IMG/VR virus record: IMGVR_UViG_2711768076_000014
Location: 1-22,684 of that record
From: a virus
Taxonomy: Duplodnaviria; Heunggongvirae; Uroviricota; Caudoviricetes
Direction: 5' to 3' (one strand)
Length of the DNA: 22,684 nucleotides
Part shown: piece after piece, positions 6,342-7,543 of the stretch
How positions within the stretch are numbered: position 1 is the stretch's first letter
Layout of the letters: the number at the start of each line of letters is the position of its first letter
Position numbers and translations under genes: made by a program
The notes under the pieces: generated by a model
Seen by the model: the letters and a program-made list of their open reading frames with translations, nothing else
Database searches by the model: none
Told to the model about the DNA's origin: nothing

Positions 6342-7543
6342 GCGAGTTAAATTATCTGGAAAAACTGCTAGATGGGACAGAGGTGGAATGGAAAGCCCTT
6401 GGAGATGTCACGAGTGTCTTGCGGGGAAAAAGGCTAACTAAAAATCTGCTTTCAGCAGAAGAAAAATTCCCGGTATTTCATGGCGGCTTAGAACCGTTAG
6501 GATATTACAATAAGTCGAATCGTCCGGCTAATACCGTTATGATTATCAATGTTGGCGCTTCAGCAGGTACTGTTGGCTATAGCACCGTTGACTTCTGGTC
6601 CTCTGATGGATGCTTTTGCTTAGAGCACAATGAGCTATTAAATAATAGGTTTTTATATTTCGCACTGATTGGTTATCAAAGTTTGCTGAAATCAAAGGTG
6701 AGAGTTGCGGGCATTCCAACACTTGATGCTATCGTAGTTAATAAACTACTTATCCCCATCCCCTGCCCAGAAAACCCGGAAAAATCCCTTGCCATCCAGT
6801 CTGAAATCGTTCGAATTCTGGATAAATTTACTGCACTTACCGCTGAGCTTACCGCTGAGCTTACCGCTGAGCTTAACATGCGTAAAAAACAATACAACTA
6901 CTATCGCGACCAGTTATTTAGTTTTGGTGCCCACGATGTTAAACGTCTGAAATTAGGAGAGCTATGTGTAATTGGAGACGGTTTGCATGGTACTCCAGAA
7001 TATGACGCCAACGGTGATTATTTCTTTATCAATGGAAACAATTTAGGCTATCAAAAAATATCATTTAACGATAACACAAAAAAGGTTAATGATTCTATGT
7101 TTAAAAAACACGGAATTCATTTTGACCCAATAAATACTGTTTTCCTGTCAATTAATGGCACAATTGGAAATGTTTCCTTTTACAATAATGAGAAGATCGT
7201 ACTCGGTAAGTCTGTGGCCTATTTTAAAATTAAATCACCTGAACTCCACACTAGATATCTTTTCTATTTCCTGCAAACCAATTACGCAAAACAGTATTTT
7301 GAAAATCAAAAAACAGGTTCAACTATTAAAAACTTAGGTTTAAAATCGTTGAGAGCATTTGAAATACCTATCCCATCATACGATGAACAACTTTATATCG
7401 TCGCCACGATGGATAAATTTTACAACCTGACAAACTCCATCACCGAAGGTCTCCCGCGTGAAATCGAGTTGCGCCAGAAACAATACGAATACTACCGTGA
7501 TTTACTGTTCAGTTTCCCGAAACCTGAAACTGTCAGTAATTAA
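6338..7543 (+). CDS. hsdS: Type I R-M specificity subunit HsdS (type IC, EcoR124-family), 401 aa
   Basis: Translationally coupled to hsdM; central conserved region with (TAEL)x3 followed by [17 protein letters not shown], echoed at the C-terminus as [19 protein letters not shown]. Confidence 0.85.
6836..6871 (+). repeat. 3 perfect tandem copies of 12-bp cttaccgctgag inside hsdS (encodes TAEL x3)
   Basis: Read directly from the sequence; corresponds to the TAEL repeat whose copy number sets spacer length in EcoR124I/II recognition sites. Confidence 0.9.

What the first reader, a model, noticed from the sequence alone, without database searches (positions are those of the whole stretch)
6836..6871. 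Three TAEL repeats in HsdS: EcoR124II-type spacer and a built-in specificity switch
A 12-bp unit is repeated exactly three times in the central conserved region of hsdS. In the EcoR124 family, two copies give an N6 spacer (EcoR124I, GAAN6RTCG) and three give N7 (EcoR124II). Unequal crossing-over between the repeats changes specificity, so this locus is a potential contingency locus and copy number may vary within a population.
Basis: partly seen in the sequence, partly recalled or inferred. Interest (0 to 1): 0.6.

Follow-up and report, generated by a model that had tools for sequence, protein, structure and literature searches.

The report
Type IC hsdS three-TAEL spacer repeat
The specificity gene of an intact EcoR124-family restriction system in E. 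coli carries three exact copies of a 12-base unit known to set the spacing of the enzyme's two-part DNA target; this is a textbook mechanism, and nearly identical strains carry one to four copies.

Summary
CTTACCGCTGAG occurs 3.3 times in tandem at 6836-6875. It lies in frame in hsdS (6338-7543) and encodes [12 protein letters not shown] in the central conserved helix. hsdM, hsdS and hsdR are all intact, and HsdM and HsdR are close full-length matches to the EcoR124 proteins, so this is a type IC system. Both target recognition domains are unrelated to those of EcoR124I (18-19% identity). The target is therefore not GAA..RTCG. What three units predict is 8 bp between the two methylated adenines, not necessarily an "N7" spacer.

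The switch reading holds between strains. The same operon, with 0-1 substitutions in 6.3 kb, exists with 1, 2, 3 and 4 units, and the 2- and 3-unit forms both have intact operons. Three units is ordinary: about 44% of E. coli type IC hsdS genes have three and about 49% have two.

Counts outside 2-3 (0, 1, 4, 5, 6, 8) go almost only with a broken hsdM or hsdS: 13 of 14 independent cases, against 11 of 119 for 2-3 units. In four lineages the lesion came first. The tract looks unstable, with selection holding working systems at two or three units. High-frequency phase variation was not shown. This is a new member of a known kind, of modest interest.

The parts
4785..6341 (+). hsdM, 518 aa, intact; its stop overlaps the hsdS start (ATGA)
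   Evidence: ORF list and translation. Pfam N6_Mtase 8e-121 plus HsdM_N. Matches EcoR124 HsdM 7bst_D over residues 1-517, 1147 bits.
6338..7543 (+). hsdS, 401 aa, intact specificity subunit
   Evidence: Translation. Pfam Methylase_S with two stretches. Best PDB match is EcoR124 HsdS 7bst_A, 6.7e-69, full length. PADLOC Specificity_I 7e-116.
6338..6391 (+). N-terminal conserved region of HsdS (aa 1-18)
   Evidence: 15 of 18 residues identical to EcoR124I HsdS.
6392..6751 (+). TRD1 (aa 19-138), the variable target recognition domain for the first half-site
   Evidence: 19% identity to EcoR124I TRD1. Weak similarity to a TRD of Mycoplasma MG438. The same TRD1 occurs with other TRD2s on plasmids (rows H33-H36).
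6752..6925 (+). Central conserved region (aa 139-196), the first coiled-coil helix that spaces the two TRDs
   Evidence: 52 of 54 residues identical to EcoR124I outside the extra TAEL. Role of this helix: PMC3874165.
6836..6875 (+). Tandem repeat, 3.3 x CTTACCGCTGAG (LTAE/TAEL x3, aa 168-179)
   Evidence: Alleles with one, two and four units differ from the window by exact 12-bp steps at this position.
6926..7369 (+). TRD2 (aa 197-344), the variable target recognition domain for the second half-site
   Evidence: 18% identity to EcoR124I TRD2. The same TRD2 occurs with other TRD1s in plasmids and chromosomes (rows H16-H24).
7370..7543 (+). C-terminal conserved region (aa 345-401), the second coiled-coil helix
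   Evidence: 46 of 57 residues identical to EcoR124I; the last 36 residues are identical.
7666..10782 (+). hsdR, 1038 aa, intact
   Evidence: Pfam HSDR_N, SWI2_SNF2, T1R_D3-like and EcoR124_C. Matches EcoR124I HsdR 2w00_A over residues 1-1038, 2251 bits.

Best explanation
The window carries an intact chromosomal type IC (EcoR124-family) restriction-modification operon, hsdM-hsdS-hsdR, in the variable island next to the leuX tRNA gene of E. coli. HsdS has the usual layout: TRD1, central helix, TRD2, C-terminal helix. The two helices pair as an antiparallel coiled coil that holds the TRDs a fixed distance apart. The 12-bp unit encodes one TAEL, about one helical turn. With three units the enzyme should methylate two adenines 8 bp apart, as EcoR124II, EcoDXXI and EcoPrrI do. 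The otherwise identical two-unit allele should recognise the same two half-sites one base pair closer. The half-sites themselves differ from those of EcoR124I and are not known.

The three units are identical at the DNA level, so slipped-strand mispairing or unequal crossing-over adds or removes whole units in frame. In working systems only two and three units persist. Once hsdM or hsdS is broken, the count drifts to 0-1 or 4-8.

Shown here: the anatomy, family membership, copy-number polymorphism on a near-identical background, and the link between unusual counts and dead genes. Inferred: the actual target sequence, that both the 2- and 3-unit enzymes are active, the mutational mechanism and its rate.
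For: Repeat and reading frame. Family. Spacing rule: PMC3874165, PMC12707154 Table 1. The same rule was confirmed by methylomes for LEAT repeats of NgoAV in natural gonococcal strains, PMC6789123.

Allelic series. HsdS proteins with one unit (P0004) and two units (P0001) have no amino-acid difference from the window outside the repeat, and the four-unit HsdS (L002) is identical to it outside the repeat. At the DNA level the operon, window 4600-10900, differs from these loci by 0-1 substitutions plus the 12-bp steps. Two- and three-unit forms with all three genes intact: L004, L005, L006 and L008 versus the window and L001.

Frequencies in complete E. coli genomes, from an evenly spaced sample: 28 loci with two units, 25 with three, and 4 others, of 57.

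Concerted evolution. In 108 of 129 loci from diverse bacteria all units are DNA-identical within the gene, while 33 different unit sequences occur between loci.

Constraint. 13 of 14 independent loci with 0, 1, 4, 5, 6 or 8 units have a broken hsdM or hsdS, against 11 of 119 loci with 2-3 units (Fisher p = 9e-11). The same hsdM lesion is shared by a 2- or 3-unit locus and a 1-unit locus in four lineages.
Against: No methylome or restriction data exist for this allele, so the 8-bp adenine spacing and the activity of both forms are predictions. One plasmid, p98210 (L203), has a single unit with hsdM, hsdS and hsdR all open, so 'only two or three units work' is not absolute. The unusual-count loci were collected opportunistically. 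In the strictly systematic sample the contrast is 3 of 4 against 1 of 8 (p = 0.07). No read-level data were available, so within-population switching is untested. The implied rate (at least 5 repeat changes against about 4 substitutions in 6.3 kb) is well above a per-site substitution rate, but may be far below that of classical contingency loci.
Confidence: 0.85

Rival explanations
1. The three units are just a fixed structural length of the helix, the commonest or optimal form as in EcoDXXI and EcoPrrI. They are not a switch. Differences between strains come from recombination between long-diverged alleles rather than from local gain and loss of units.
For: Three units is very common: about 44% of E. 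coli type IC hsdS genes and 44 of 101 intact loci from other bacteria. The review calls three the apparent optimum. TRD shuffling by recombination is evident in this family (rows H16-H36).
Against: Alleles with 1, 2, 3 and 4 units sit on operons with 0-1 substitutions in 6.3 kb and in the same island, so the unit changes are local and recent. Units are DNA-identical within genes but differ between species, which needs ongoing turnover. Lineages marked by one hsdM lesion carry two different counts.
Confidence: 0.08
2. The tract is unstable, but its variation is only mutational decay. The counts seen in nature reflect drift in dead or dying systems plus purifying selection. Toggling between two and three units has no adaptive role, so this is not a contingency locus.
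For: Nearly all unusual counts are in loci with broken hsdM or hsdS, and the lesion came first in four lineages. hsdM pseudogenes are frequent at this chromosomal site; every locus read for the P0030/P0031/P0037 allele family is broken. No evidence of rapid reversible switching was obtained.
Against: Two- and three-unit versions of the same allele both occur with all three genes intact, so at least one change happened in, or was kept by, a working system. Both lengths are about equally common in intact systems across Proteobacteria. EcoR124I/II and NgoAV show that both lengths give active enzymes with different targets. DNA-level identity of the units is kept in 84% of loci.
Confidence: 0.3
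3. The repeat count in this window, or in the variant alleles, is a sequencing or assembly error.
For: The four-unit locus L002 also carries a 1-bp deletion in an A-run of hsdM, a typical long-read error. One metagenome contig (L103) starts close to the tract.
Against: The tract is 36-40 bp, far shorter than any read. Twelve complete genomes agree on three units. Two assemblies agree on four units. The one- and two-unit forms are seen in 15 and over 190 contigs from independent projects. Many of the associated lesions are IS insertions or nonsense substitutions, not homopolymer errors.
Confidence: 0.02

Closest known systems
EcoR124I / EcoR124II (plasmid R124, type IC): GAA N6 RTCG versus GAA N7 RTCG
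   Same: Same gene order. HsdM and HsdR are close full-length matches. Same HsdS conserved regions, and the same TAEL tetrapeptide in the same helix. Two versus three units is the only difference within each allele pair.
   Different: Both TRDs are unrelated (19% and 18% identity), so the half-sites differ and are unknown. The operon is chromosomal, in the leuX island, rather than on a plasmid. One- and four-unit forms of the allele also exist in nature, but with a broken hsdM.
EcoDXXI (TCA N7 RTTC) and EcoPrrI (CCA N7 RTGC), type IC enzymes with three TAEL units
   Same: Three units in the central region, with 8 bp between methylated adenines. EcoPrrI is also chromosomal in E. coli (own knowledge).
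   Different: The window has no prrC-like gene between the hsd genes.
NgoAV of Neisseria gonorrhoeae (type IC, LEAT repeats)
   Same: Natural strains carry 0-3 tetrapeptide units. One versus two units shifts the methylated motif from GAC N6 TGC to GAC N7 TGC (PMC6789123). This precedent shows that population-level unit variation changes specificity.
   Different: The repeat is in a different register (LEAT). NgoAV also uses a poly-G frameshift that truncates HsdS; no such tract is present here.
Phase-variable type I systems driven by simple sequence repeats (Atack et al. 2020, PMC7383803)
   Same: A repeat inside hsdS that can change length by slippage. The authors themselves point to the TAEL tract as a model for spacing changes.
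   Different: Those tracts are 1-7 bp units with many copies. They switch expression on and off at high frequency by frameshifting. Here the unit is 12 bp, the changes are in frame, there are only 2-3 copies, and the expected effect is a change of target rather than on/off.

Membership tests
Type IC restriction-modification (EcoR124 family) | Operon hsdM-hsdS-hsdR, with hsdS directly after and overlapping hsdM | tested here: met
   ORFs 4785-6341, 6338-7543 and 7666-10782, all on the + strand.
Type IC restriction-modification (EcoR124 family) | HsdR and HsdM closely related to EcoR124 HsdR and HsdM | tested here: met
   HsdR matches 2w00_A over residues 1-1038, 2251 bits, with the Pfam EcoR124_C domain. 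HsdM matches 7bst_D over 1-517, 1147 bits.
Type IC restriction-modification (EcoR124 family) | HsdS conserved N-terminal, central and C-terminal regions, with tetrapeptide (TAEL) repeats in the central region | tested here: met
   83%, 96% (outside the extra unit) and 81% identity to EcoR124I; TAEL x3.
Type IC restriction-modification (EcoR124 family) | Subunit complementation with other type IC enzymes (the formal definition of a type I family) | not testable with these tools
   Needs genetics. The definition is given in PMC12707154.
Type IC restriction-modification (EcoR124 family) | Bipartite m6A target with methylated adenines 7 bp (two units) or 8 bp (three units) apart | not testable with these tools
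   No methylome data.
EcoR124I/II specificity (GAA N6/7 RTCG) | TRDs homologous to those of EcoR124I | tested here: not met
   TRD1 25/133 and TRD2 28/156 identical positions in global alignment. The HMMER alignment has low confidence in both TRDs.
Contingency (phase-variable) locus | A repeat tract whose length differs between otherwise identical genomes | tested here: met
   1, 2, 3 and 4 units on operons with 0-1 substitutions in 6.3 kb.
Contingency (phase-variable) locus | More than one repeat state gives a functional product | tested here: inconclusive
   Two- and three-unit alleles both have intact hsdM, hsdS and hsdR, but activity was not measured. Other counts are almost always in broken systems.
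Contingency (phase-variable) locus | High-frequency, reversible switching within a clonal population | not testable with these tools
   No read-level or culture data.

The most novel reading that the evidence does not exclude
The TAEL tract may be a selected two-state switch. Second-order selection would keep the units DNA-identical, so that lineages toggle between two methylation and restriction specificities one base pair apart. Enzymes with other unit counts would be harmful rather than merely inactive. That would explain why such counts are seen almost only where hsdM or hsdS is already broken. In dead systems the unit count would then serve as a rough record of time since inactivation.
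Probability: 0.25. Interest if true: 0.55.

Novelty: new member of a known kind. Interest (0 to 1): 0.35.

Why it matters
For this window, it gives a concrete and testable prediction. The strain should methylate an asymmetric bipartite site with adenines 8 bp apart. Sister strains with two units should methylate the same half-sites one base pair closer. The two groups should therefore restrict each other's DNA despite identical genes.

More generally, the survey suggests that in E. coli about half of type IC systems sit in each of the two states. The tract appears unstable enough to reach 0-8 units once selection is lifted. That bears on how far in-frame repeat changes, rather than TRD shuffling, diversify type I specificities and barriers to gene flow.

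The mechanism has been known since 1989 and has been confirmed in natural Neisseria strains. The finding extends known biology rather than changing it.

Tried and rejected
1. A short query with one unit did not separate alleles, because BLAST pieces on either side of longer tracts were joined. The record spans were still useful and revealed the 4- and 8-unit loci.

2. I tried to assign the half-sites. The only structural relatives of the TRDs are S subunits of Mycoplasma MG438 and Methanocaldococcus, whose targets are unknown.

3. The primary papers on altered repeat numbers are not held: Gubler and Bickle 1991, Gubler et al. 1992, Youell and Firman 2008. What one or four units do biochemically could not be checked. 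I recall that altered spacers gave relaxed specificity, but I do not rely on this.

4. The exact three- and four-unit proteins are not in the large protein collection. None of the best 120 relatives has three units. Direct DNA searches show this is a sampling effect, not rarity.

5. I tested a 'contraction first, then loss of hsdM' model. For the P0037 allele, two different hsdM lesions share the one-unit state, which at first favoured it. The same two lesions also occur with two units, so lesion-first fits better. The same holds for two lineages of the window allele.

6. The genome-contig scan with HsdR returned only relatives at 87% identity or less. It served as an outgroup sample, not as an E. 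coli sample.

7. Automatic calls of 'intact hsdM' by tblastn missed nonsense and start-codon mutations. I replaced them with direct translation.

Full report
**1. The observation**

The sequence at 6836-6871 is CTTACCGCTGAG three times without a mismatch. The next four bases, CTTA, continue the period to 6875. Tandem Repeats Finder reports period 12, 3.3 copies, 100% matches and score 80, the best score in the window. A scan for exact tandems of period 4-30 with at least three copies finds nothing else in the 22,684 bases. About 1e-10 such tracts are expected from base composition. The tract lies in frame in ORF 6338-7543 (+) and encodes [12 protein letters not shown] at residues 168-179 of a 401-residue protein. 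The whole hsdS gene is base-for-base identical in eleven complete E. coli chromosomes and differs by one base in a twelfth; all twelve carry the same three units.

**2. What the gene is**

Three ORFs lie head to tail on the + strand:
- 4785-6341, 518 aa
- 6338-7543, 401 aa
- 7666-10782, 1038 aa

Pfam identifies them as HsdM (N6_Mtase, HsdM_N), HsdS (two Methylase_S stretches) and HsdR (HSDR_N, SWI2_SNF2, T1R_D3-like, EcoR124_C).

Against solved structures, HsdR matches EcoR124I HsdR over residues 1-1038 with 2251 bits. HsdM matches the EcoR124 M subunit over 1-517 with 1147 bits. The best match of HsdS is the EcoR124 S subunit, 7bst_A.

A region-by-region comparison with that S subunit gives:
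- N-terminal conserved region: 15 of 18 identical
- central conserved region: 52 of 54 identical outside the extra TAEL
- C-terminal conserved region: 46 of 57 identical
- TRD1: 19% identity
- TRD2: 18% identity

This is a type IC system with the family's constant scaffold and two recognition domains of its own. Its target is therefore not GAA..RTCG. I could not assign the half-sites.

Annotated relatives place the operon in the variable island between the fim/nan genes and the leuX tRNA gene. A recent review lists this site as a defence hotspot that holds type IC systems in about 4% of strains (PMC12707154).

**3. What the repeat does, from the literature**

EcoR124I has two TAEL units and recognises GAA N6 RTCG. 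EcoR124II has three and recognises GAA N7 RTCG. EcoDXXI and EcoPrrI also have three. The unit lies in the first of the two helices that space the TRDs, and the change arises by unequal crossing-over (PMC3874165).

The quantity that follows the unit number is the distance between the two methylated adenines: 7 bp with two units and 8 bp with three. The nominal number of N also depends on the half-sites. EcoR124I-delta recognises GAA N7 TTC with two units (PMC12707154, Table 1).

In Neisseria gonorrhoeae, natural strains carry 0-3 LEAT units in the type IC NgoAV HsdS. Methylomes show GAC N6 TGC with one unit and GAC N7 TGC with two (PMC6789123). Both the mechanism and its natural variation are therefore already known.

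**4. Does the count vary for this allele?**

Yes. In complete E. coli genomes, two assemblies carry the same hsdS with four units and one carries a 97%-identical gene with two. In the large protein collection, a two-unit protein (P0001, 192 contigs) and a one-unit protein (P0004, 7 contigs) have no amino-acid difference from the window outside the repeat.

At the DNA level, the whole operon (window 4600-10900) differs from these loci by 0-1 substitutions plus exact 12-bp steps at 6836. The loci lie in the same island, with the same AbiE, DUF4942 and HNH genes upstream.

In this small family I count at least five changes of unit number against about four substitutions in 6.3 kb. By inference, the tract changes some thousands of times faster than a single site. 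That is still compatible with a rate far below classical phase variation.

Two-unit loci (L004, L005, L006, L008) and three-unit loci (the window, L001 and ten further complete genomes) have all three genes intact. This is a natural EcoR124I/II-like pair.

**5. How unusual are three units?**

Not at all. An evenly spaced sample of the 1,343 E. coli records that match the central region gave the following, of 57 evaluable (counts derived from the record spans):

| Units | Loci |
|---|---|
| 2 | 28 |
| 3 | 25 |
| 1 | 1 |
| 4 | 1 |
| 5 | 2 |

A three-unit query matched 416 of 1,344 records at 95% identity or better. A two-unit allele cannot reach that identity in one gapped alignment.

In loci fetched through HsdR from other bacteria and from metagenomes, the intact systems split 57 with two units to 44 with three.

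**6. A pattern beyond the finding**

Every locus I met with a count outside two or three was checked for gene integrity.

| Units | Locus or allele | Lesion |
|---|---|---|
| 1 | window allele | hsdM 1-bp deletion at window 5282 |
| 1 | window allele | hsdM 8-bp deletion at 6189-6196 |
| 1 | window allele | hsdM W307 stop |
| 1 | P0037 allele | hsdM stop at codon 88 |
| 1 | P0037 allele | hsdM start codon ATG to ACG |
| 1 | E. albertii P1-like plasmid | hsdM frameshift |
| 4 | window allele (L002) | hsdM 1-bp deletion at 5226 |
| 4 | plasmid of ETEC1701 | IS inside hsdS |
| 4 and 6 | L130 and L018 (counted as one case) | same IS3 insertion in hsdM |
| 5 | NT1F10, YPE12 | IS2 in hsdM |
| 5 | NC101 | ISEc45 in hsdS |
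| 8 | strain 33-6 | IS elements in hsdM and hsdS |
| 0 | Nitrosomonas genome | hsdM frameshift |

That is 13 independent cases with a broken hsdM or hsdS. A further one-unit allele (P0115) has a contig junction inside hsdM and is probably broken too.

The single exception is plasmid p98210, with one unit and all three ORFs open.

Among loci with two or three units, 11 of 119 have a broken hsdM or hsdS. The contrast of 13/14 against 11/119 gives Fisher p = 9e-11. Two caveats apply. The unusual-count loci were gathered opportunistically, although chosen only by count. Within the strictly systematic sample the contrast is 3/4 against 1/8 (p = 0.07).

Order of events. Four hsdM lesions are each shared by a locus with two or three units and a locus with one unit:
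- the 8-bp deletion: three units and one unit
- the 1-bp deletion at 5282: two and one
- the stop at codon 88: two and one
- the start-codon loss: two and one

The IS3 lineage holds both four and six units. In every lineage where the order can be read, the lesion came first and the count changed afterwards.

The simplest reading is an unstable tract that selection holds at two or three units while the methyltransferase core is alive. I cannot tell whether other counts are merely inactive or actually harmful.

In the E. coli sets that were not selected through HsdR, the lesions hit hsdM or hsdS and almost never hsdR, although hsdR is the larger target. I have no tested explanation for this.

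**7. Concerted evolution**

In 108 of 129 two- or three-unit loci from diverse bacteria, all units are identical at the DNA level within the gene. Between loci, 33 different synonymous versions of the unit occur. This is what frequent gain and loss of units would produce. It argues against a static structural element.

**8. Verdict**

It needs three corrections:
- The safe prediction is the adenine spacing of 8 bp, not 'N7'.
- Unrelated TRDs do not refute membership.
- 'Contingency locus' is shown only as between-strain polymorphism on a near-identical background, not as rapid switching.

This is a new, uncharacterised allele of a well-known kind, in one of its two common states. The pattern linking unusual counts to dead systems is, as far as the searchable literature shows, not described for E. 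coli. It is the most interesting by-product, but it rests on a modest sample.

Noticed in passing
Related loci L002, L010-L019, L090, L100, L101, L130, L182-L187, L202, L215, L216 (repeat position = window 6836-6875): TAEL counts outside 2-3 (0, 1, 4, 5, 6, 8) co-occur with a broken hsdM or hsdS in 13 of 14 independent cases, against 11 of 119 loci with 2-3 units. In four lineages the same hsdM lesion is shared by a 2- or 3-unit locus and a 1-unit locus, so the lesion came first.
   Followed up: yes
L203 (plasmid p98210, NZ_CP173527, locus 2459-8509): This is the one exception. A P1-like plasmid carries a type IC operon with a single TAEL unit and open hsdM, hsdS and hsdR. It may be a working enzyme with adenines 6 bp apart, or a very recent contraction.
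   Followed up: partly
hsdM = window 4785-6341; lesions at window 5226, 5282, 5705 and 6189-6196 in related loci: Within this near-clonal operon, hsdM carries at least four independent knock-outs in other strains, while hsdR (twice the target size) carries none. In a second allele family (P0030/P0031/P0037/P0041), every locus read has one of three hsdM lesions. One locus (L192) has in addition an IS in hsdR. The reason for the bias towards hsdM is unexplained.
   Followed up: partly
L020-L181 (type IC loci from other bacteria and metagenomes): The repeat units are DNA-identical within a gene in 84% of loci, but 33 synonymous versions occur between loci. This is concerted evolution of a 12-bp coding repeat across Proteobacteria and beyond.
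   Followed up: yes
window 2283-3645 (-), 3646-4479 (-), 989-1639 (-): Upstream of hsdM lie an AbiEii/AbiEi toxin-antitoxin pair, a DUF4942 gene and an HNH/ScoMcrA_N-like protein. In annotated relatives the last of these sits next to a remnant of a phosphorothioate-dependent restriction gene. Together with hsdMSR this is a compact defence island that travels as a unit in related strains.
   Followed up: partly
window 10959-22684 (-): Downstream of hsdR lies a P4-like satellite: integrase 21422-22684, primase 15781-18453, DUF5375, and two Psu-like genes at 14089-15380. It carries a type II-A retron pair: reverse transcriptase 11263-12210 (PADLOC RT_II-A, 8e-121) and an NDT effector 12197-13183 (2e-87). 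Other strains have a different cargo (Dsr2, Kiwa) or no satellite at this place.
   Followed up: partly
L003 (Z1322HEC0006, locus 2961-4193): The two-unit hsdS in this complete genome, 97% identical to the window's, has a frame change near its start. This replaces the conserved N-terminal 28 residues, and the gene is annotated from an upstream start inside hsdM. It is either a lesion or an assembly error.
   Followed up: no
L101, L203, L215 (plasmids): Type IC hsd operons sit next to phd/doc on P1-like phage-plasmids. About 44% of all matches in complete E. coli genomes are on plasmids (639 of 1,458 places), so the family moves between plasmids and the leuX island.
   Followed up: no
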